Shown: positions 16,524 to 62,590, numbered from the stretch's first letter. The stretch: DNA of 64,000 bases from an uncultured Candidatus Saccharibacteria bacterium (GCA_964483665.1 CAZACP010000004.1:7399-71398); one strand, 5' to 3'. Notes: a model not told the origin generated them from the letters alone. Made by a program: numbers and translations.

Positions 16524-16632
16524 AGTTTAGTAAAATTGACGTTGCTAGATTCTGTAGTTTTCCCCGCCTACAACGCATATGTCGTAGCATTTCGGGCAGG
16601 TGTAGTGTATTTCTATTTGTTATTCTGTAGCT

Positions 16633-22050: not shown

Positions 22051-22179
22051 AAATTTGTCTTTTATTTAAGGTTAATTTGTTGACATTATTATAGCAAAAA
22101 ACAAAAAAAATCAACACTATCTAGTAAAATCCCTTTAGTACTTTCGTATATTTTCGCACTTTAGTAGCCAATAGCCAAT

Positions 22180-23853
22180 TTACTCCAAAGGCAACGAAAA
22201 ATAAAAAGTGCTACCCAAATTTTCACCCGGGCTTTCCGCCCAAACTTGGCCGCCATGGGATTCCACAATGCCTTTTGTAACAACCAAACCAAGTCCGGTG
22301 CCTTTACGACTCCTGTCGCCGCTTTTAAGCTGTTTAAATTTCGAAAACAACACGGGCAAATCTTCCGGCGAAATGCCTATACCGGTGTCTTTAACCCCCA
22401 CGACAACGCGCTTTTTTTCCGGCTCGGTATTTACGTTAACGACTATTTCGCCCGTGTCCGAATATTTTATTGCGTTGCTAATTAAATTGCCTAACACCTG
22501 AGCCACCCTAACTCTGTCAAATTTGCACTTAAATTTTTCAGGCGAAGTGAACTTTATAGACAAATGTTTGGCTTCGGCCTGGGGTTTAAATGCGTCCACC
22601 TGCTGTTTTAACACTTCGACCAAATCATACTCCTGGGCATTTAACTCAAACTTCCCGGCTTCTATTTTTGCCACGTCAAGCAGGTCGTTAACCAACTCCA
22701 GCATATTGTTAGAAGCCGTTTCTATGGTTAAGAAGGTATCTTTTACCTTGGTTTGGTCGGTACCTTGAGCCGCGGCCAAAGTTTTTATCATTGATTCGCT
22801 TGACCAACGAACCGCGGTCAAAGGAGCCCTAAGCTCGTGCACCATCATGGCGGTAAATTCCTGACGCAATTTTTCCAAAGATTTTTCCGTGGTAATGTCG
22901 TGAAAAACCACGTTGGTGCCTATTTTTTCACCTGCATCGGTTTTAACCGGCGTAATGGTAATTTCTAAAGCTTTGTTTTTCAACACTACATCCGGCACAA
23001 AAACAGTTTTGTCTTCACTCAGTGCCTGGTCTATTTTAGTTCTCAAGTCCGTCTTGCCGGCAAGCGCGTCAACTATGTCGAACATCGTTAAAGCCTGACC
23101 CGGCTTAAGGCCCGTAATTTCTAAAATTTCCTTTACCGAATGATTAGCAATTAACAATTGGTGGTTTAAGTCCACGTTAATTATACCGTCGGCAATTGAG
23201 TCAATAACTGCTTCTAACTTCCCTTTTTCGCTATGCAAAACGGCCTGCAGTTTAGTAACCGCGGTTGCTGCCTGGTTGGTAATAGCATACAAAATAGATG
23301 CCTGTTCGTCGCCATAACGGCCCGCTTCCGAAGAAGCCACGTTTATAAGGCCGATTAACTTTTCTCCAATAACCACAGGTAAGTTGAAATAAGATTTTAC
23401 ATTTACGTTTATATTGTCGTCTAAAATATTTCCGGTTACGCTTTCATCAACTTTTTGAGGCTTTATATCCTCGTTTAAAATAGCCGCAAAAGCCTGGAGC
23501 ATTTTTTCTTTTACTTCCGAAATAAACTCGTGGTTAACCGTATTTTCTACATGGCATTTAAACACCACTTTATGGTCGTCGGTTAAAACCATATACGAAA
23601 CTGTGTCGTACTCCAGCAAATTACCAAGCGAATTGGTAATAATTTCCACCACTTTGTTGGTGTCTAAGCTATAGCCAATACGTTCGCTTATTTCTTTTAA
23701 CACCTGGGCTTGATAGACTTTTTGTTGCAGCTGCAGGCTCTGGCTTAAGCGTTTTCTTAAAACATTACGCTCTTTTAAAGAGCGAAAAACATACCATGTT
23801 ACAACAATGGCAAGGATAATAAAATCTACTACTAATAAAATATTGATGATCAT
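22180..23853 (-). CDS. Sensor histidine kinase (TM, GAF/PAS-like, HisKA, HATPase)
   Basis: H-box MMVHELRAPLTAV, N-box LISNAIKYS and G-boxes VKDTGIGI and GTGLGLVVTKGIV. Confidence 0.85.
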   Translation of the reverse strand: MIINILLVVDFIILAIVVTWYVFRSLKERNVLRKRLSQSLQLQQKVYQAQVLKEISERIGYSLDTNKVVEIITNSLGNLLEYDTVSYMVLTDDHKVVFKCHVENTVNHEFISEVKEKMLQAFAAILNEDIKPQKVDESVTGNILDDNINVNVKSYFNLPVVIGEKLIGLINVASSEAGRYGDEQASILYAITNQAATAVTKLQAVLHSEKGKLEAVIDSIADGIINVDLNHQLLIANHSVKEILEITGLKPGQALTMFDIVDALAGKTDLRTKIDQALSEDKTVFVPDVVLKNKALEITITPVKTDAGEKIGTNVVFHDITTEKSLEKLRQEFTAMMVHELRAPLTAVRWSSESMIKTLAAAQGTDQTKVKDTFLTIETASNNMLELVNDLLDVAKIEAGKFELNAQEYDLVEVLKQQVDAFKPQAEAKHLSIKFTSPEKFKCKFDRVRVAQVLGNLISNAIKYSDTGEIVVNVNTEPEKKRVVVGVKDTGIGISPEDLPVLFSKFKQLKSGDRSRKGTGLGLVVTKGIVESHGGQVWAESPGENLGSTFYFSLPLE

Positions 23854-23860
23854 TTTTGTT

Positions 23861-23905
23861 TTTGCTACAGAAACCTACTAAAACACACTACGTAAAACTA
23901 CAGAA
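23861..23905. repeat. Family F element (CTACAGA tandem motifs)
   Basis: gctacagaaacctactaaaacacactacgtaaaactacagaagc. The inverted partner is at 24289-24330. Confidence 0.55.
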
Positions 23906-24035
23906 GCTATTTAAAGTTATTTTGATTAAGCACCCTTTTTGGTGCTAAATATTTAGTTCGAAAGTTAACTAAAATACCAAGCTTAAAATTAGTTATATCC
24001 AAGTATCTTTTTATTTGTTCGAAATGTTCTTTTAT

Positions 24036-24314
24036 TTAAAACCGAACAGCCTTTAGCTCCAATATTAATGCATTGTCAATAATAAAATCCACAATATTTC
24101 CTGTGTCCCCGATTATTACTTCTTTCTTATACTTAATACCATTTTCTGAAAATTTTTTCTCTAGCAACTTACTATATTGTTTCTCCTTAGCATATGGACC
24201 TAATTCTTTATAAACTTCAATCAATAAACCGTTTATTTTATAGCTCAAATCCCCGTACAAAAAATCTACCTTCAGTTTCTTCGTTTCTGTAGTTTTCTGT
24301 AGGTTATTACTCAT
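24036..24314 (-). CDS. GxxExxY family protein (PD-(D/E)XK-like), C-terminally truncated paralogue
   Basis: FLYGDLSYKINGLLIEVYKELGPYAKEKQYSKLLEKKF is about 60% identical to the 39534..39923 protein, but it stops at LKAVRF and lacks the last 35 aa. Confidence 0.65.
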   Translation of the reverse strand: MSNNLQKTTETKKLKVDFLYGDLSYKINGLLIEVYKELGPYAKEKQYSKLLEKKFSENGIKYKKEVIIGDTGNIVDFIIDNALILELKAVRF

Positions 24315-24328
24315 TCGTAGTTCTGTAG

Positions 24329-24595
24329 CTACAATGCTTTTATTGAAGGGTATTTTTCGAGCAATGAATTTAATGTCATTTGCGCGATTTGTCCGGAAAG
24401 CGCCATATATTCGTTGGCCACGCCTTTTAAAACCATAGGCGGGTTGCCGTCCATGTCCAAAACCGTTCCGTCGTCGGCTATTTTTACCCCCGGCACTTTG
24501 CGGGCTTTATCGAGTGCAATATTGGGGCCTAACACAACCATTTGCTTTTGGATCAAATCCGTAAGCATTTTTTTGTATTCTGCTTGGTCTTGCAT
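24329..24595 (-). CDS. Hypothetical protein
   Basis: 88-aa ORF with no motif I recognise. Confidence 0.35.
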   Translation of the reverse strand: MQDQAEYKKMLTDLIQKQMVVLGPNIALDKARKVPGVKIADDGTVLDMDGNPPMVLKGVANEYMALSGQIAQMTLNSLLEKYPSIKAL

Positions 24596-24626: not shown

Positions 24627-24670
24627 TTCCCTCTCCAAGACTTGGAGAGGGTTAGGGAAAGGTTGATGAT
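24627..24670. repeat. Family A element (CCCTCTCCAAGACTTGGAGAGGG TTAGGGAAAGGTTG)
   Basis: Matches the cores at 63043 and 6204. Confidence 0.7.
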
Positions 24671-24763
24671 TTGTAAACTGAGGTAAGTTAACTTATTATA
24701 CCATAAAAAATACAAACACGCCTCTTAAGAGAAAACTCCACTGAGGCGTGCTTAGCAAAAATT

Positions 24764-33749: not shown

Positions 33750-33830
33750 GTAGTTGGTAGTTGGTAGTTGGTAGTTGGTAGCCCAAATTGCTCCGGCTAC
33801 TTACTACTTTACTACCTACTACTTACTAAA
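33750..33830. repeat. Family D element: (TAGTTGG)4 array - spacer - (CTACTTA)n array
   Basis: Read directly from the sequence. The second copy is at 62515-62590. Confidence 0.65.
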
Positions 33831-38260: not shown

Positions 38261-39478
38261 TTATTTTAATGCTTCTATTCCCGGCAGTTTTTTGCCGGCT
38301 AAGTATTCTAGCATAGCTCCGCCGCCTGTTGAGACGTGGTCTATATTTTCAAATTGGTGCGCTTGTCTTATAGCATCTACCGTATCTCCCCCGCCAGCGA
38401 CCACAAACGCTTTGCCTTTACCCCGACCACCAATAAGCCTAGCTAAAGCAAAAGTTGCATGGTGAAAAGGCTTTTTTTCAAAAAGCCCTAAGGGCCCGCT
38501 CCAAACTATGGTTTTAGCCGCTTTTATGTGTTTAGAAAACTCCAAAATAGTTTTTGGGCCGGCATCTAAAATTTGCTCATTTTCTCTTACCTCGTATGGG
38601 GCGCAGGAACGAATATTTTTTAATTCTTTATTTGCCACCACAACATCTACGGGTAAAACCAATTTGTTTTTATAATTCTTTGCTATTTGCATAGCGGTTT
38701 TCCTTTCGCCTTCCTCTACGCGGGAAATCCCTATTTCAAAACCCTTGGTTTGAAAAATTAAATTTGCCACTCCCCCGGAAACTAAAATTTTATCTGCCTT
38801 TTTGCCTAAATTTTCGAGTGCTCCCACTTTTTCTGAAAGTTTTATACCGCCGGTCATAACCACAAAGGGGCTTTTTGGGTGCCTAATAAGAGCGTCCAAA
38901 GACTTAATTTCCTTTTCTAAAAGAAGCCCGCAATATGAATTTAAATATTTTGTCACGCCCACTATAGAAGCCGCAGACCTATGGTCAACGCCAAAAGCGT
39001 CGTTTACATATACATCCGCTAAATTTGAAAGTTTTTTAGAAAATACCGGGTCGTTCTCTTCTTCCCCTTTATAAAATCTTAAGTTTTCTAAAAATACAAT
39101 GTCTTTTTCAGAAATTGCCTTTATTTGTTTTTGATGCTTGTCTTCCGTGATTTTTCCGGTGTAAAAAATTAAATGCCGTGCATGGTAATCCGGAACCCTA
39201 TGGTCTGTTTCAATGAATTTAAGTTCCAAAAAATCCGCCATTAGCTTTGCCGCCGGTTTTAGGCTGAATTCTTCATTCCATTTGCCCTTTGGCCTGCCCA
39301 AATGCCCGCAAACTATAACTTTATTTTTATTTTTTAGCAAATGTTTTATGGTTGGCACAACCTGCTCAATTCTAAAAGCGTCGGAAACTTTGCCGTTTTC
39401 TATAGGCACGTTAACGTCTACGCGCAAAAGAACAGTTTTGTTTTTAAGTGTTGATGTTTTAAGATATTTAATAGCCAT
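38261..39478 (-). CDS. pgk: Phosphoglycerate kinase
   Basis: LLRVDVNVP...VIVCGHLGRPKG...GGGA. Confidence 0.9.
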   Translation of the reverse strand: MAIKYLKTSTLKNKTVLLRVDVNVPIENGKVSDAFRIEQVVPTIKHLLKNKNKVIVCGHLGRPKGKWNEEFSLKPAAKLMADFLELKFIETDHRVPDYHARHLIFYTGKITEDKHQKQIKAISEKDIVFLENLRFYKGEEENDPVFSKKLSNLADVYVNDAFGVDHRSAASIVGVTKYLNSYCGLLLEKEIKSLDALIRHPKSPFVVMTGGIKLSEKVGALENLGKKADKILVSGGVANLIFQTKGFEIGISRVEEGERKTAMQIAKNYKNKLVLPVDVVVANKELKNIRSCAPYEVRENEQILDAGPKTILEFSKHIKAAKTIVWSGPLGLFEKKPFHHATFALARLIGGRGKGKAFVVAGGGDTVDAIRQAHQFENIDHVSTGGGAMLEYLAGKKLPGIEALK

Positions 39479-39480
39479 AA

Positions 39481-39533
39481 AACTACAAAACTACAGACAT
39501 ATACGAATCTACAGATACCTACAGAATCGTATA
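39481..39533. repeat. Family F element (CTACAGA motifs)
   Basis: aaactacaaaactacagacatatacgaatctacagatacctacagaatcg. The inverted partner is at 39925-39960. Confidence 0.55.
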
Positions 39534-39923
39534 TTAAATATTATTTGGATTTAAAACTCTCTTTATTTGTAATCTGGGGACGCGGAAGTTTACTAATAGA
39601 CCTAATTTTAAATTCGTTTGAATTAAATAACGCTTTAACTGATCATATGTTTCTTGTATTAAAAAAGGTACTGTTTTTAATTCTAGAATAATTCTATTTT
39701 CAATAATGAAGTCAGCAATATTACCAGAATCCCCTATCCTAACCTCTCTCTTATAATTCACGGCTCTGTTTTTAAATATAATTTCTATTTTATCGGCTAC
39801 TTGTTTTTCTCTAGCATATGGCCCCAGTTCTTTATGAACCTCAATTAAAATGCCATTGATCTTGTAAGTAAGATCGCCGTACAAAAATTCTGACATCTTT
39901 TTAAACTTAGTTTCTGTAGGCAT
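39534..39923 (-). CDS. GxxExxY family protein (PD-(D/E)XK-like), full length
   Basis: FLYGDLTYKINGILIEVHKELGPYAREKQ....ELKTVPFLIQETYDQLKRYL. Confidence 0.7.
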   Translation of the reverse strand: MPTETKFKKMSEFLYGDLTYKINGILIEVHKELGPYAREKQVADKIEIIFKNRAVNYKREVRIGDSGNIADFIIENRIILELKTVPFLIQETYDQLKRYLIQTNLKLGLLVNFRVPRLQIKRVLNPNNI

Positions 39924-39956
39924 CTGTAGTACATTTAATTCTGTAGTTCTGGTAGT

Positions 39957-40976
39957 TTACTTTCCCACTAACACAACTTCCTCCACCAGCCTGTTTGAAT
40001 ACCCAAACTCGTTGTCGTACCAGGCAATAACTTTTACAAAATTACCGTCTATAACCTGGGTTAGCGACAAATCTACTATGCTTGATGCCGGGTTGCCGAC
40101 TATGTCTTGCAAAACCAATTGTTCACGCGAAGCAATGAGTATATTTTTATAATGCGGAAGCTTTGCCGCGTCTTCAAAGGCCTCGTTAACTTCTTCTTTG
40201 GTGGTTTTCTTTTTAAGCAGTAAAGTAAAATCAGAAAGGCTGCCAACAGGGGTCGGTACCCTAAAAGCAATGCCGTCAAATTTGCCTTTTAGCTCTGGTA
40301 TTGCCTGAGTTGCGGAAATGGCCGCGCCGGTTGAAGTGGGAATTATATTTACTGCCGCTGCACGGGCACGACGGAGGTCAGTTGATTTTCCGCCTGGCGG
40401 AGGCCCGTCTACCAAGTTTTGCTCGGCTGTATAACTATGAATAGTAGACATAAACGCCTTTTCCACGCCAAATTTTTTGTGCAGCACATCTAAAACCGGT
40501 GCTATGCAGTTTGTGGTACAAGAAGCATTGCTAATAATATTTTGCTTATGGTACTCTTCCTGGTTAACGCCAAGGACTATGGTGGGGGTTATGCCTTCGT
40601 CTTTAGCCGGCGCGGAAATAATAACTTTTTTTGCTCCGGCTTTTATATGCGCGCTTGCTTTTTCACTGTCTGTAAAACGACCGGTGGATTCTATAACCAC
40701 GTCCACATTCAGCCTGCCCCAAGGCAGAGCTTGCGGCTCTTTTTCCGTAAACACCGGATATTTTTTTCCGTCCGCAATAATATGATTTTGGTCAAAAGAA
40801 ACTTTATGTTTAAACTTACCGTAATTGCTATCATATTGTAATAAATGCGCTAACACTTCTGTGGAAGTTAAATCATTTATACCCACAACCTCTATTTCCG
40901 GTTTTTCTATGGCAATTTTAAAAGCCTGCCTGCCAATCCTCCCAAAACCGTTTATTGCTAATTTAATTTTTTGCAT
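39957..40976 (-). CDS. gap: Glyceraldehyde-3-phosphate dehydrogenase
   Basis: INGFGRIGR and ASCTTNC. Confidence 0.9.
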   Translation of the reverse strand: MQKIKLAINGFGRIGRQAFKIAIEKPEIEVVGINDLTSTEVLAHLLQYDSNYGKFKHKVSFDQNHIIADGKKYPVFTEKEPQALPWGRLNVDVVIESTGRFTDSEKASAHIKAGAKKVIISAPAKDEGITPTIVLGVNQEEYHKQNIISNASCTTNCIAPVLDVLHKKFGVEKAFMSTIHSYTAEQNLVDGPPPGGKSTDLRRARAAAVNIIPTSTGAAISATQAIPELKGKFDGIAFRVPTPVGSLSDFTLLLKKKTTKEEVNEAFEDAAKLPHYKNILIASREQLVLQDIVGNPASSIVDLSLTQVIDGNFVKVIAWYDNEFGYSNRLVEEVVLVGK

Positions 40977-41094
40977 TTGATTAATTTAAATTCGAAGCAT
41001 CAAATACGAAATTCGAAACAAATTCAAATAAAAAATTTTTAAATATTAAACTGTAACTATTTTTCGGATTTCGATATTCGGATTTCGAATTTTG

Positions 41095-42510: not shown

Positions 42511-42552
42511 GCAAATAATAGTGTTCGACCTTGTGGAGAACCTATTATTTGC
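42511..42552. repeat. Family H element (solo unit GCAAATAATAGTGTTCGACCTTGTGGAGAACCTATTATTTGC)
   Basis: 10-bp flanking stem around the conserved core. Confidence 0.6.
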
Positions 42553-42603
42553 TTTCATCAGTCTAGCAAAATATCTTCTCCATAAAGTCGAAGAATATTT
42601 TGC

Positions 42604-42879
42604 TTACACCCATTTACCCCACTCTCCGCTAATTAATTTTCTTTTCTTTTTCTGGCCCCAACCTTTAACTTGCTTTTCTCTAAGTCTTGCTTCTTCCAAA
42701 TTTTCAAATTCTTCAATATAAACTATATTTTTAACTCCGTGCTTCTTGGTATACTCCGAACCTTCTCCAAGCAAATGCTGATTTCCGCGAATATCGTGGT
42801 TCCAAGTCATTCCGGTATAAAAAGTATCGTCCAGGCACTCCACAATATACACATACCATTTCCAGTTTTCTTTGGTCAT
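42604..42879 (-). CDS. GIY-YIG nuclease family protein (second copy)
   Basis: WYVYIVECLDDTFYTGMTWNHDIRGNQHLLGEG...IVYIEEFENLEEARLREKQVKGW. Confidence 0.75.
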   Translation of the reverse strand: MTKENWKWYVYIVECLDDTFYTGMTWNHDIRGNQHLLGEGSEYTKKHGVKNIVYIEEFENLEEARLREKQVKGWGQKKKRKLISGEWGKWV

Positions 42880-42892
42880 TGCTTAAAAATTT

Positions 42893-42964
42893 TAGTGTTC
42901 GAGCTTGTCGAGAACCCAAAATTTTACGTACTTAATAGTATCACAAGGTCGAATAATATTAAGT
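42893..42964. repeat. Family H element (direct copy plus inverted partial copy)
   Basis: ttttagtgttcgagcttgtcgagaacccaaaatttt ... tcacaaggtcgaataatatt. Confidence 0.6.
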
Positions 42965-42978
42965 GCTCCTACGTGCAT

Positions 42979-45075: not shown

Positions 45076-45091
45076 TTTGTTTTTGCGGTAT

Positions 45092-45131
45092 TTCCCTCCC
45101 CTCCTAAGGGGAGGGATTAAGGGAGAGGTTG
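45092..45131. repeat. Family A element (CCCTCCCCTCCTAAGGGGAGGG ATTAAGGGAGAGGTTG)
   Basis: Read directly from the sequence. Confidence 0.65.
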
Positions 45132-45135
45132 TATT

Positions 45136-45501
45136 TTAAAACCCGCATGCTTCTTTTATTTTACTTAAAACTCCTTGAATATTTGTGTCTATTTCATTAT
45201 TCCAAAATCTTAAAACTTTGTAGCCTATTTTTTCTGCGTACTGTTGTTTTCGCTTATCGTAAGCCGATATTTCTTGCTCGCTGTGCTGTCCTCCGTCTGC
45301 CTCCACTAAGAGCATTTTCTCTTTACAACTAAAATCATAAATATACTGTCCAATTTGCATTTGACGCTTAAATTTTAACCCATAAAACCTACCAGCTCTT
45401 AAATAATACCAAAGCTTGCTTTCCCAAGGAGTCTGATTTTTTCTTAGGCTTCGGGAATTGGTTAAATATGGCTCTGGTATAACTCTTTTGGCAGTATCCA
45501 T
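45136..45501 (-). CDS. DUF559 endonuclease-domain protein (Vsr-like fold)
   Basis: YGLKFKRQMQIGQYIYDFSCKEKMLLVEADGGQHS...YKVLRFWNNEI. Confidence 0.75.
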   Translation of the reverse strand: MDTAKRVIPEPYLTNSRSLRKNQTPWESKLWYYLRAGRFYGLKFKRQMQIGQYIYDFSCKEKMLLVEADGGQHSEQEISAYDKRKQQYAEKIGYKVLRFWNNEIDTNIQGVLSKIKEACGF

Positions 45502-45511
45502 ATGTTTTTAG

Positions 45512-45620
45512 TCTCTCCCCTTTTAAGGGGAGATGTCACGAGTGTATCCGAGTGACAAAGAGGTTGTATACTACATCTACTGCAACCTCTCCCTAACCCT
45601 CTCCTTAAAAGGAGAGGGTA
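45512..45620. repeat. Family A composite element (4 hairpins: CTCCCC/GGGGAG, GTCAC/GTGAC, GAGGTTG/CAACCTC, CCCTCTCC/GGAGAGGG)
   Basis: Same stem set as 63043-63138 in inverted orientation, but with different loops. Confidence 0.7.
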
Positions 45621-45645
45621 CCTGTAAAGATATCGTACGTTTCTT

Positions 45646-62510: not shown

Positions 62511-62514
62511 TATG

Positions 62515-62590
62515 TAGTTGGTAGTTGGTAGTTGATAGTTGGTAGCCGAACATTGCCTGACTACTTACTACTTACTACTTCACTAATCGC
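62515..62590. repeat. Family D element (TAGTTGG array - spacer - CTACTTA array)
   Basis: It overlaps the last 8 codons of rplO. Confidence 0.65.

What the first reader, a model, noticed from the sequence alone, without database searches (positions are those of the whole stretch)
23861..24330. Truncated GxxExxY paralogue flanked by inverted CTACAGA-motif repeats
Both GxxExxY genes (24036-24314 and 39534-39923) are bounded by family F repeats in inverted orientation. CTACAGA arrays sit on the gene-3' side (plus-strand left) and TCTGTAG arrays on the 5' side. The repeats also encode the first roughly 10 aa (xTETKK). The copy at 24036 is missing about 35 C-terminal residues present in its paralogue, so it is a decaying duplicate. 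An additional family F block without a gene sits at 16545-16630. The genes look like IR-bounded mobile cassettes.
Basis: seen in the sequence. Interest (0 to 1): 0.55.

Follow-up and report, generated by a model that had tools for sequence, protein, structure and literature searches.

The report
Nuclease gene cassettes with heptamer-array inverted ends
The flagged gene is a stop-codon-inactivated copy of a widespread ~480-bp cassette, a tiny nuclease gene bracketed by inverted arrays of a 7-base motif, that sits between the stop and start codons of neighbouring housekeeping genes in Patescibacteria, differs between near-identical strains, and has not been described in the literature I could search.

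Summary
The repeats are real. CTACAGA occurs 17 times against 2.6 expected, and 11 copies flank the two GxxExxY genes in inverted orientation. One correction: copy A (24036-24314) is not deleted. A single in-frame TAA interrupts it, and 42 homologous codons follow.

Each gene lies in a ~470-bp unit bounded by ~45-nt imperfect terminal inverted repeats. Each repeat holds about four heptamers (generic TACNRAW) spaced 8-10 nt apart, and the start codon lies inside the 5' arm.

64 of 81 relatives' loci in Patescibacteria share this design. The heptamer variant is matched between the two arms of a cassette, but it differs between cassettes of the same genome. The units fill the stop/start junction of co-oriented host genes.

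At gap-pgk I found an empty site (TAATG overlap), discordant cassette types, and a ~140-bp internally deleted derivative. At locus A, strains with 100% identical flanks carry a cassette only about 65% identical.

Most likely this is a selfish, slowly turning-over cassette whose PD-(D/E)XK nuclease acts on its own heptamer arrays. That mechanism is inferred, not shown. The RNA-stem (IVS-like) reading is weaker but not excluded.

The parts
23865..24328 (-). Cassette A, whole unit (464 bp): 5' arm, interrupted GxxExxY ORF, 3' arm. It fills the space between the TAG stop of the 88-aa gene (24329-24331) and 11 nt before the ATG of the histidine kinase gene (23851-23853).
   Evidence: Divergence from the L011 allele starts and ends within the outermost heptamers.
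24286..24328 (-). 5' arm of cassette A. CTACAGA heptamers at 24322-24328, 24296-24302 and 24286-24292, plus a degenerate CTACGAAT at 24313-24320. It contains the ATG (24312-24314) and codes residues 1-10.
24036..24314 (-). Truncated GxxExxY ORF (92 aa). It matches TIGR04256 positions 2-78 of 116.
24036..24038 (-). In-frame TAA nonsense codon (the paralogue has TTA Leu). Identical in five other assemblies.
23907..24035 (-). The remaining 42 in-frame codons of the GxxExxY gene (IKEHFEQIKRYLDITNFKLGILVNFRTKYLAPKRVLNQNNFK) plus the TAG stop.
   Evidence: The reconstructed 135-aa protein finds intact relatives at up to 80% identity.
23865..23905 (-). 3' arm of cassette A. In gene orientation it reads TTCTGTAG ... 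TACGTAG ... TTAGTAGG ... TTCTGTAG. It is more degenerate than in cassette B.
   Evidence: The arm-to-arm alignment scores 38 against a shuffled maximum of 29.
39483..39956 (-). Cassette B, whole unit (474 bp). It lies between the GAPDH stop (39957-39959) and 4 nt before the PGK ATG (39476-39478).
39912..39956 (-). 5' arm of cassette B: ACTACCAGA ACTACAGAA ... CTACAGATG CCTACAGAA. The ATG (39921-39923) is embedded between heptamers 3 and 4.
39534..39923 (-). Intact GxxExxY / PD-(D/E)XK gene (129 aa). D71 and E81-x-K83 are conserved.
39483..39526 (-). 3' arm of cassette B. In gene orientation: TTCTGTAGGTATCTGTAGATTCGTATATGTCTGTAGTTTTGTAG.
   Evidence: (I3)
16545..16630 (-). Orphan heptamer block between the FtsL-like gene and the PBP gene. 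It holds two CTACAGAA in direct orientation, CTACACC, CTACGAC and one inverted GTTGTAGG, with no ORF.
22131..22169 (-). Orphan 5'-arm-like array directly after the histidine-kinase stop codon: CTACTAAA GTGCGAAAA ATACGAAA GTACTAAA. It has no inverted partner.

Best explanation
The locus is one inactivated copy of a family of ~480-bp selfish gene cassettes. Each cassette has three parts: (i) a 5' terminal inverted repeat of about 45 nt built from roughly four heptamers (generic TACNRAW, here CTACAGA) spaced 8-10 nt apart, (ii) a single gene of about 125-135 aa for a minimal PD-(D/E)XK nuclease (GxxExxY, TIGR04256/PF13366) whose start codon sits between heptamers 3 and 4, and (iii) the inverted copy of the heptamer array.

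The cassette occupies the stop/start junction of two co-directional host genes and is presumably transcribed with them.

Proposed mechanism (inferred, not shown): the nuclease recognises the heptamer arrays at both ends as nucleic-acid binding sites and cuts there, or at a rival or empty allele. Host recombination and repair then do the joining. The result would be homing-like gain, replacement of one cassette by another at an already occupied site, internal deletions that leave ORF-less minis, and orphan arms. Copy A is at the decay stage of that cycle: a nonsense codon and eroded arms.

Shown: the anatomy, its generality, arm co-variation per cassette, junction placement, an empty site, allele replacement, a deletion derivative, and conserved catalytic residues. 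Inferred: who binds the heptamers, where cutting occurs, and how copies move.
For: Anatomy in the window.

Generality:
- 64 of 81 loci from Patescibacteria genomes have an arm-to-arm alignment at least 10 points above the best shuffle. L046 has a perfect 44-nt TIR.
- The heptamer census is TACGAAT 108, TACTAAT 85, TACAAAT 76, TACAGAT 45 and so on, with spacing peaks at 8-10 nt and 17-19 nt.

The motif is constrained more than base pairing is:
- Arm mismatches are 482 transversions, 137 sense-wobble and 127 antisense-wobble.
- The degenerate position N matches between paired heptamers in 62% of cases, against 56% expected.

Specificity is cis, not host-wide:
- The dominant heptamer class is the same in both arms in 49 of 64 cassettes, against 14.3 for random pairing.
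- Cassettes in the same genome carry different classes.

Placement:
- Median unit length is 484 bp.
- 55 of 56 upstream and 43 of 50 downstream neighbours within 30 nt are co-oriented.
- The median distance from the upstream stop to the 5' arm is -5.5 nt, and from the 3' arm to the downstream ATG 0 nt.

Turnover:
- At locus A the flanks are 100% identical while the cassette is 55-67% identical per 100-nt window. The break lies in the outer heptamers, and both alleles occur in several assemblies.
- gap-pgk is occupied in at least 8 diverged genomes by cassette types discordant with host divergence. L089 has GAPDH 83% but cassette 52% with TACTGAT heptamers. L014 has GAPDH 80% and cassette 75% with CTACAGA.
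- L158 has an empty gap-pgk junction, AAGTAATGG.
- L108 and L110 carry a ~140-bp internally deleted derivative although GAPDH and PGK are 100% identical in protein to the window's.

The nuclease looks functional:
- D71, E81 and K83 are invariant in 25 sequences.
- The AF2 model has pLDDT 88.6. Its best structural matches (Foldseek E about 2e-3 to 4e-3; none at or below 1e-3) are Cas4, then lambda exonuclease.
- The TIR-encoded residues 1-10 are disordered.

Beyond Patescibacteria: a Bernardetia (Bacteroidota) plasmid gene has inverted CACAGAG arrays, scoring 41 against a shuffled maximum of 28.
Against: - No identical or near-identical cassette was found at two different loci. The nearest relatives of A and B elsewhere are 80% and 78% identical, so recent transposition is not demonstrated.
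- Persistence at gap-pgk across diverged genomes fits long vertical residence.
- No target-site duplication could be defined.
- A 129-aa PD-(D/E)XK protein has no recognisable separate DNA-binding domain and cannot carry out strand transfer.
- At the gap-pgk site, the L108 allele comes with a patch of synonymous differences in the first ~100 nt of pgk. That looks like ordinary homologous-recombination import rather than end-specific exchange.
- Binding of the nuclease to the heptamers is untested.
Confidence: 0.5

Rival explanations
1. RNA-level element, like the intervening sequences of 23S rRNA. In the polycistronic transcript the two arms pair and loop out the cassette, so the upstream stop and downstream start lie at the base of the stem. 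RNase III, or the encoded nuclease acting as an RNase, cuts the stem. This releases the cassette mRNA and leaves short-leader or leaderless host cistrons. The arms would be kept for this processing or coupling, and DNA mobility would be secondary. This reading can coexist with the best explanation.
For: - The full cassette B transcript folds with the arms paired end to end (MFE -113.8 kcal/mol, z -3.4).
- The arms abut the stop and start codons.
- The size, terminal stem and single small ORF parallel the Coxiella and Leptospira IVS, which RNase III excises (PMC4990558; PMC2672173).
- The structural neighbours include tRNA-splicing endonucleases.
Against: - There is no excess of G-U-compatible mismatches on the sense strand (137 against 127), and 65% of arm mismatches are transversions.
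- The same heptamer is repeated four times per arm and conserved as a motif across lineages, which pairing alone does not require.
- The degenerate heptamer position is barely correlated between the arms.
- Any TIR will fold, so the fold itself is not evidence.
Confidence: 0.2
2. A long-resident, domesticated small nuclease gene with a host role (repair, defence or regulation). The heptamers would be operator or regulatory sites, and strain differences would arise only from ordinary homologous recombination between diverged lineages.
For: - The ORFs stay intact with conserved catalytic residues over 45-100% identity.
- gap-pgk occupancy is old and widespread.
- No identical copies occur at different loci.
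- The L108 allele carries a recombination-like synonymous patch in pgk.
Against: - An empty site, an internally deleted copy, a nonsense allele and orphan arms show the cassette is dispensable.
- Cassette type is discordant with host divergence at one site.
- Different heptamer classes occur within one genome.
- There is no PADLOC match.
- The divergence boundary falls exactly in the outer heptamers at locus A, with 100% identical flanks.
Confidence: 0.15
3. The heptamer arrays are ends recognised by a recombinase or transposase encoded elsewhere in the genome, and the GxxExxY gene is only cargo.
For: - The encoded protein is very small.
- ORF-less minis and orphan arms persist.
Against: - The same gene family is the only cargo in all 64 TIR-bearing loci.
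- The heptamer class co-varies per cassette, not per genome.
- The start codon is built into the arm.
- No transposase or integrase lies next to the cassettes in the window.
Confidence: 0.08
4. Chance, or simply shared 5' ends of two paralogous genes.
For: The inner heptamers are part of the coding sequence.
Against: - 17 copies against 2.6 expected.
- Arrays also lie 3' of the stop codons and in gene-less blocks.
- The same design appears in 64 independent loci.
Confidence: 0.01

Closest known systems
23S rRNA intervening sequences with an ORF (Coxiella, Leptospira; S23p / four-helix-bundle ORF)
   Same: Both are selfish insertions of about 430-500 nt with terminal inverted repeats that can form a long stem. 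Both carry a single ORF of about 120 aa and are co-transcribed with the host gene. In both, the ORF is prone to decay (PMC4990558).
   Different: This element sits between protein-coding genes, not in an rRNA helix. Its ORF is a PD-(D/E)XK nuclease, not S23p. Its arms are arrays of a repeated heptamer with only about 79% arm-to-arm identity, and there is no wobble signature. RNase III excision is untested.
Free-standing homing endonuclease genes (e.g. phage T4 seg/mob genes)
   Same: Both are small nuclease genes lodged in intergenic spacers between conserved, co-oriented genes. Both show presence/absence and replacement polymorphism between close relatives and a cycle of gain, decay and loss (PMC2790892 abstract; the rest is my own knowledge).
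   Different: Homing endonuclease genes have no terminal inverted repeats or end arrays. The nuclease family here (GxxExxY) has no characterised member, and cleavage of the empty site is untested.
REPIN-RAYT systems
   Same: In both, a gene is flanked by short repeats in inverted orientation, gene-less repeat copies lie in intergenic DNA, and inheritance is largely vertical and long-term (PMC3337134 and related papers).
   Different: RAYTs are HUH/Y1 transposases, usually single-copy, with hundreds of REPINs. Here the protein is a PD-(D/E)XK nuclease, several diverged gene-bearing copies occur per genome, and few gene-less copies were seen.
IS elements and MITEs (e.g. Correia elements)
   Same: They share terminal inverted repeats, internally deleted non-autonomous derivatives, co-transcription with neighbouring genes, and several subterminal binding-site repeats as in Tn7, Mu or CACTA ends (my own knowledge).
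   Different: There is no DDE, HUH, serine or tyrosine transposase. No target-site duplication was identified, and no identical copies occur at different loci.

Membership tests
GxxExxY protein family (NCBIfam TIGR04256 / Pfam PF13366 PDDEXK_3) | HMM score above the curated cut-off | tested here: met
   B scores 67.9 bits (cut-off 35) and 69.4 bits (cut-off 22). A scores 37 and 42.9 bits over profile positions 2-78/79.
GxxExxY protein family (NCBIfam TIGR04256 / Pfam PF13366 PDDEXK_3) | PD-(D/E)XK catalytic core (D ... E-x-K) and restriction-endonuclease-like fold | tested here: met
   D71, E81 and K83 are invariant in 25 sequences. The AF2 model has pLDDT 88.6, and its best Foldseek matches, all weak (E about 2e-3 to 4e-3), are Cas4, then lambda exonuclease. 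In copy A the core lies before the TAA, but the C-terminal third is cut off.
Classical IS element / MITE | Terminal inverted repeats | tested here: met
   Arms of 40-55 nt in 64 of 81 loci, including a perfect 44-nt pair in L046.
Classical IS element / MITE | Recognised transposase (DDE, HUH, Ser or Tyr) | tested here: not met
   The only Pfam/NCBIfam match above a curated cut-off is PF13366/TIGR04256.
Classical IS element / MITE | Target-site duplication, and multiple near-identical copies at different sites | tested here: not met
   The junctions show no consistent duplication. Exact-protein look-ups place each cassette at a single locus, and the nearest other copies are at most 80% identical.
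Free-standing homing endonuclease gene | Nuclease gene in an intergenic spacer of conserved genes, with empty alleles in relatives | tested here: met
   The empty gap-pgk junction TAATG is in L158.
Free-standing homing endonuclease gene | The enzyme cleaves the cassette-less allele and is copied in by repair | not testable with these tools
   Needs biochemistry or a genetic cross.
rRNA IVS-type element | Located in an rRNA helix and excised from the rRNA by RNase III | tested here: not met
   Both copies lie between protein-coding genes. The only Rfam hit in the window is one tRNA. Excision from RNA is not testable here.
REPIN-RAYT | HUH/Y1 (IS200-like) transposase flanked by REP sequences | tested here: not met
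   The protein is a PD-(D/E)XK nuclease.
Known anti-phage defence systems (PADLOC-DB) | Match to a defence-system protein model | tested here: not met
   0 families at E <= 0.01.

The most novel reading that the evidence does not exclude
GxxExxY (TIGR04256/PF13366) proteins, a family with 7,658 50%-identity clusters at E <= 0.001 (1,126 at E <= 1e-10) and no assigned function, would be the sole protein of a previously unrecognised class of autonomous mobile element. A nuclease of about 125 aa would recognise its own heptamer-array inverted ends and drive homing or cassette exchange at stop/start junctions of operons. That would make it among the smallest self-contained mobile units known, found across Patescibacteria and probably Bacteroidota.
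Probability: 0.3. Interest if true: 0.85.

Novelty: new variant of a known kind. Interest (0 to 1): 0.68.

Why it matters
It would give a function and a testable mechanism to a large protein family of unknown function. That family litters the operons of streamlined Patescibacteria genomes.

It offers a concrete recognition code to test: four TACNRAW heptamers per end, with cassette-specific variants.

It shows how an insertion can sit exactly between a stop and a start codon of essential glycolytic genes without breaking the operon. It also flags these cassettes as strain-level markers and recombination hot spots in metagenome-assembled genomes.

If the nuclease is programmable through heptamer variants, it could also be useful as a sequence-specific tool.

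Tried and rejected
1. Scan of viral contigs for the arm core CTACAGATRCCTACAGA. It gave 34 hits, and none encodes a relative of the cassette protein. Most are one conserved coding stretch of an unrelated phage group, so there is no cassette in IMG/VR with this arm.
2. PDB sequence search with the family profile. Nothing significant.
3. PADLOC: no hit. PHROGs: only families of unknown function.
4. Reciprocal swap idea. The A-like cassette P0046 at gap-pgk looked as if A and B had swapped loci in the L011 strain. Rejected: the L153 flanks are only 71-84% identical to the window, so it is a different species.
5. RNA-pairing signature. The wobble-bias test and the degenerate-position test gave no support.
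6. Orphan blocks as hairpins. 16524-16632 and 22051-22179 do not fold better than shuffles.
7. PGK-seeded metagenome scan. Only 3 close relatives among 80 loci, but they supplied the empty site and a different occupant.
8. FtsL-neighbour look-up for polymorphism of the 16.5-kb block. It has the same length in all 7 strains and differs by a single base in one (L117).
9. Literature. 'GxxExxY' appears in 3 papers and 'PDDEXK_3' in 1, and none deals with repeats or mobility. No paper on MITE-like elements of Patescibacteria was found.

Full report
**Observation**

The window has 39% GC and nearly all its genes are on the minus strand. By its closest relatives it comes from a Patescibacteria genome close to Doudnabacteria. 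This origin is an inference.

CTACAGA occurs 17 times, against 2.64 expected from 100 dinucleotide shuffles (largest 11).
- Eleven copies bracket two small minus-strand ORFs. In gene orientation, CTACAGA copies lie upstream of each ORF and TCTGTAG copies lie downstream.
- Two further copies lie at 16551 and 16624.
- The remaining four are isolated, which is the chance number.

Both ORFs pass the curated cut-offs of TIGR04256 (GxxExxY) and PF13366 (PDDEXK_3). They are 63% identical to each other.

- The DNA is all there. One in-frame TAA (24036-24038, where the paralogue has TTA) is followed by 42 in-frame homologous codons and then a TAG at 23907-23909.
- The same interrupted cassette is identical base for base in five other assemblies.
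- It is therefore a real nonsense allele, not a deletion and not an assembly error.

**Anatomy**

Each gene is the centre of a discrete unit, 23865-24328 for A and 39483-39956 for B. Each unit is bounded by imperfect inverted repeats of about 45 nt.

Each arm holds about four heptamers. Relatives show the canonical form best. L014 reads CTACAGAACTACAGAAATAATGTACTACAGATGCCTACAGAA ... gene ... TTCTGTAGGTATCTGTAGATTCGTATTAATCTGTAGTTCTGTAG.

The start codon sits between heptamers 3 and 4. The N-terminal 'MPTE' and 'LQKTTE' residues seen in many homologues are therefore translated repeat sequence. In the AlphaFold model (mean pLDDT 88.6) exactly these residues 1-10 are disordered.

The rest of the protein is a minimal PD-(D/E)XK fold.
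- D71 and E81-x-K83 are invariant in 25 sequences.
- The best structural matches are Cas4 proteins (SSO0001, Pcal_0546), lambda exonuclease and, at weaker scores, tRNA-splicing endonucleases and Hjc. All are modest: Foldseek E-values start at about 2e-3, with none at or below 1e-3.
- There is no solved relative by sequence and no PADLOC hit.

**Generality**

I fetched 80 loci encoding relatives, all from genome assemblies of Patescibacteria lineages (some carry other taxon labels). Together with the window's copy B and L011, that gave 81 testable loci. Copy A was excluded because the analysis window ran off its extracted segment.

- In 64 of the 81 loci, aligning the 5' flank to the reverse complement of the 3' flank scores at least 10 points above the best of 20 shuffles.
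- Arms are 40-55 nt long and about 79% identical. L046 has a perfect 44-nt pair.
- The repeated unit is a heptamer of generic form TACNRAW. The census is TACGAAT 108, TACTAAT 85, TACAAAT 76 and TACAGAT 45, among others. Spacing peaks at 8-10 nt and 17-19 nt.
- The dominant heptamer class is the same in both arms of a cassette in 49 of 64 cases, against 14.3 for random pairing.
- Cassettes in the same genome can carry different classes, for example AG and AA in CAYIHW, or AA and GG in JAJYWK.
- So the arms co-vary per cassette, not per host. That argues against a genome-wide host binding site.
- A Bernardetia (Bacteroidota) plasmid GxxExxY gene has inverted CACAGAG arrays. A Treponema gene has one inverted ACACGGATTCG pair, and a Persicobacter gene has none. 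The design therefore probably extends beyond Patescibacteria.
- The family is large: 7,658 50%-identity clusters at E <= 0.001 and 1,126 at E <= 1e-10.

**Placement**

- The units have a median length of 484 bp.
- 55 of 56 upstream neighbours and 43 of 50 downstream neighbours within 30 nt are on the same strand (binomial P about 1e-20).
- The median distance from the upstream stop codon to the 5' arm is -5.5 nt. From the 3' arm to the downstream ATG it is 0 nt.
- In the window, the TAG of the 88-aa gene and the TAA of GAPDH abut the 5' arms. The histidine-kinase ATG is 11 nt and the PGK ATG 4 nt beyond the 3' arms.
- This genome rarely uses Shine-Dalgarno motifs (11 of 50 genes even with a lenient definition). 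An arm next to an ATG therefore need not harm initiation.
- The tight fit may simply reflect very short original spacers plus selection against insertions within genes. The orientation bias is not explained that way.

**Polymorphism and turnover**

Locus A:
- Strains represented by L011 have flanks 100% identical to the window for hundreds of bases on both sides. Between the outermost heptamers they carry an intact 129-aa cassette.
- That cassette is only 55-67% identical to copy A per 100-nt window.
- Both alleles occur in several independent assemblies.

gap-pgk site:
- Strains whose GAPDH and PGK proteins are 100% identical to the window's (L108, L110) carry a remnant of about 140 bp. It consists of A-type arms plus the last few codons of a GxxExxY gene, so it is an internally deleted, MITE-like derivative.
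- That allele comes with a patch of synonymous differences in the first ~100 nt of pgk. It was probably imported by ordinary homologous recombination.
- The same junction is occupied in at least eight diverged genomes, by cassette types that do not track host divergence. L089 has GAPDH 83% identical but cassette 52% with TACTGAT heptamers. L014 has GAPDH 80% and cassette 75% with CTACAGA.
- L158 (GAPDH 79%, PGK 71%) has the empty junction AAGTAATGG, a one-base stop/start overlap. L156 and L157 (GAPDH 96%) carry an unrelated 110-aa membrane ORF there.

Relatives of A and B:
- The nearest intact relatives of A (80% and 74%) sit at gap-pgk, or next to pgk, in other genomes.
- The nearest relative of B (78%) sits at locus A.
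- I found no identical cassette at two different loci, so movement is inferred and appears slow.

Orphan arrays without a gene lie at 16545-16630, fixed in seven strains, and at 22131-22169. Neither folds better than shuffled sequence.

**Mechanism**

The evidence favours sequence-specific recognition of the heptamers over simple base pairing.
- The same motif is repeated four times per arm and conserved as a motif across cassettes whose proteins are only 45-50% identical.
- 65% of arm-to-arm mismatches are transversions.
- Mismatches compatible with G-U pairing are no more frequent on the sense strand (137) than on the antisense strand (127).
- The degenerate heptamer position matches between paired heptamers only slightly more often than chance (62% against 56%).

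The arms do pair in a predicted fold of the whole transcript, but any inverted repeat would. I therefore rank the readings as follows.

1. A selfish cassette whose own PD-(D/E)XK nuclease binds and cuts at its heptamer arrays, or at rival or empty alleles, while host recombination does the joining. This is homing-like, with cassette replacement at occupied sites, then decay to nonsense alleles, minis and orphan arms. Confidence 0.5.
2. Confidence 0.2.
3. A domesticated host gene with ordinary recombination between strains. Confidence 0.15.
4. Arms used by a recombinase encoded elsewhere, with the nuclease as cargo. Confidence 0.08.

Which protein binds the heptamers, where cutting occurs and how copies spread are all inferred, not shown.

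**Comparison with known systems**

- The nearest architectural analogue is the ORF-bearing 23S rRNA intervening sequence. It is 428-444 nt long, has a 28-bp terminal stem and an S23p ORF, and is excised by RNase III (PMC4990558). It lies in rRNA and encodes a different protein.
- Free-standing homing endonuclease genes share the intergenic placement and the cycle of gain, decay and loss, but they have no inverted ends.
- REPIN-RAYT shares the design of a gene flanked by inverted repeats with gene-less copies elsewhere, but it uses a HUH transposase.
- Classical IS and MITE membership fails. There is no known transposase, no target duplication and no identical copies at different loci.
- In the searchable literature 'GxxExxY' occurs in three papers and 'PDDEXK_3' in one. 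None concerns repeats, placement or mobility.
- Work on selfish insertions in Patescibacteria concerns rRNA and tRNA introns and LAGLIDADG enzymes.
- I could not read the NCBIfam or Pfam curators' free-text notes, which might mention the context.

**Verdict**

The specific locus is an inactivated member of the family. The family-wide design is the more important result: heptamer-array inverted ends, a start codon inside the arm, exact occupancy of stop/start junctions, and strain-level replacement. It appears to be undescribed.

I rate it a new variant of a known kind (a selfish element bounded by inverted repeats) and give it an interest of 0.68.

Noticed in passing
window 42511-42966 (- strand): A GIY-YIG nuclease gene (about 42604-42879, 91 aa) between the transketolase and PfkB genes. 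It is bracketed by a 25-nt inverted repeat (42511-42535 / 42942-42966, 84% complementary). This is another small nuclease gene with inverted ends in the same operon region.
   Followed up: partly
window 45080-45625 (- strand): A DUF559 (Vsr-like endonuclease) gene at 45136-45501, between the ribulose-phosphate epimerase and transketolase genes. It is flanked on both sides by CCCTCTCC...GGAGAGGG-type hairpins. A similar hairpin lies at about 24640-24680. In L011, a DUF559 gene follows the PCC-domain gene, at the point where L011 stops aligning with the window.
   Followed up: partly
window 33750-33830 and 62514-62590 (- strand): Two near-identical hairpins of about 75 nt, built from exact tandem 7-mers: (GTAGTAA/GTAGGTA)n, a loop of about 12 nt, then (CTACCAA)4-5. 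They end 3-5 nt before the ATGs of the RecJ-like gene and of a 429-aa gene. RNA fold z-scores are -4.8 and -2.7. The CTAC/GTAG core resembles the family F heptamers, but the arms face outward.
   Followed up: partly
window 40988-41092: The intergenic spacer between the PfkB and GAPDH genes holds an inverted repeat of TTCGAA/TCGGATT-type short units (31-nt arms, 71% complementary). It includes AATACGAAAT, which resembles heptamers of other cassette classes.
   Followed up: no
window, all gene starts: Only 11 of 50 genes have even a lenient Shine-Dalgarno-like motif upstream. Most starts are preceded by A/T-rich sequence.
   Followed up: partly
L155:1700-2300: A contig in which a GC-richer phage-like block (Sipho_Gp157, Rad52/22, SSB) is joined directly to the outer heptamer of the 5' arm of an A-type cassette that precedes pgk. 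This suggests the arm is a rearrangement or integration point.
   Followed up: no
L073:2343-2436 and L087:2367-2455: The upstream arm block (about 50-75 nt including three to four heptamers) is tandemly duplicated two to three times in some cassettes.
   Followed up: no
protein representatives P0210, P0213, P0220, P0228, P0249 etc.: Roughly a third of the best-scoring family representatives are 250-900 aa long, with the GxxExxY domain at one end or inside. This would be expected if cassette ORFs fuse with abutting host genes after stop-codon loss, or are mis-called under another genetic code.
   Followed up: no
L156/L157:1657-2001: In the closest other species (GAPDH 96% identical), the gap-pgk spacer holds an unrelated 110-aa hydrophobic ORF in place of a cassette. 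A possible TGTAG remnant lies just before the pgk ATG.
   Followed up: no
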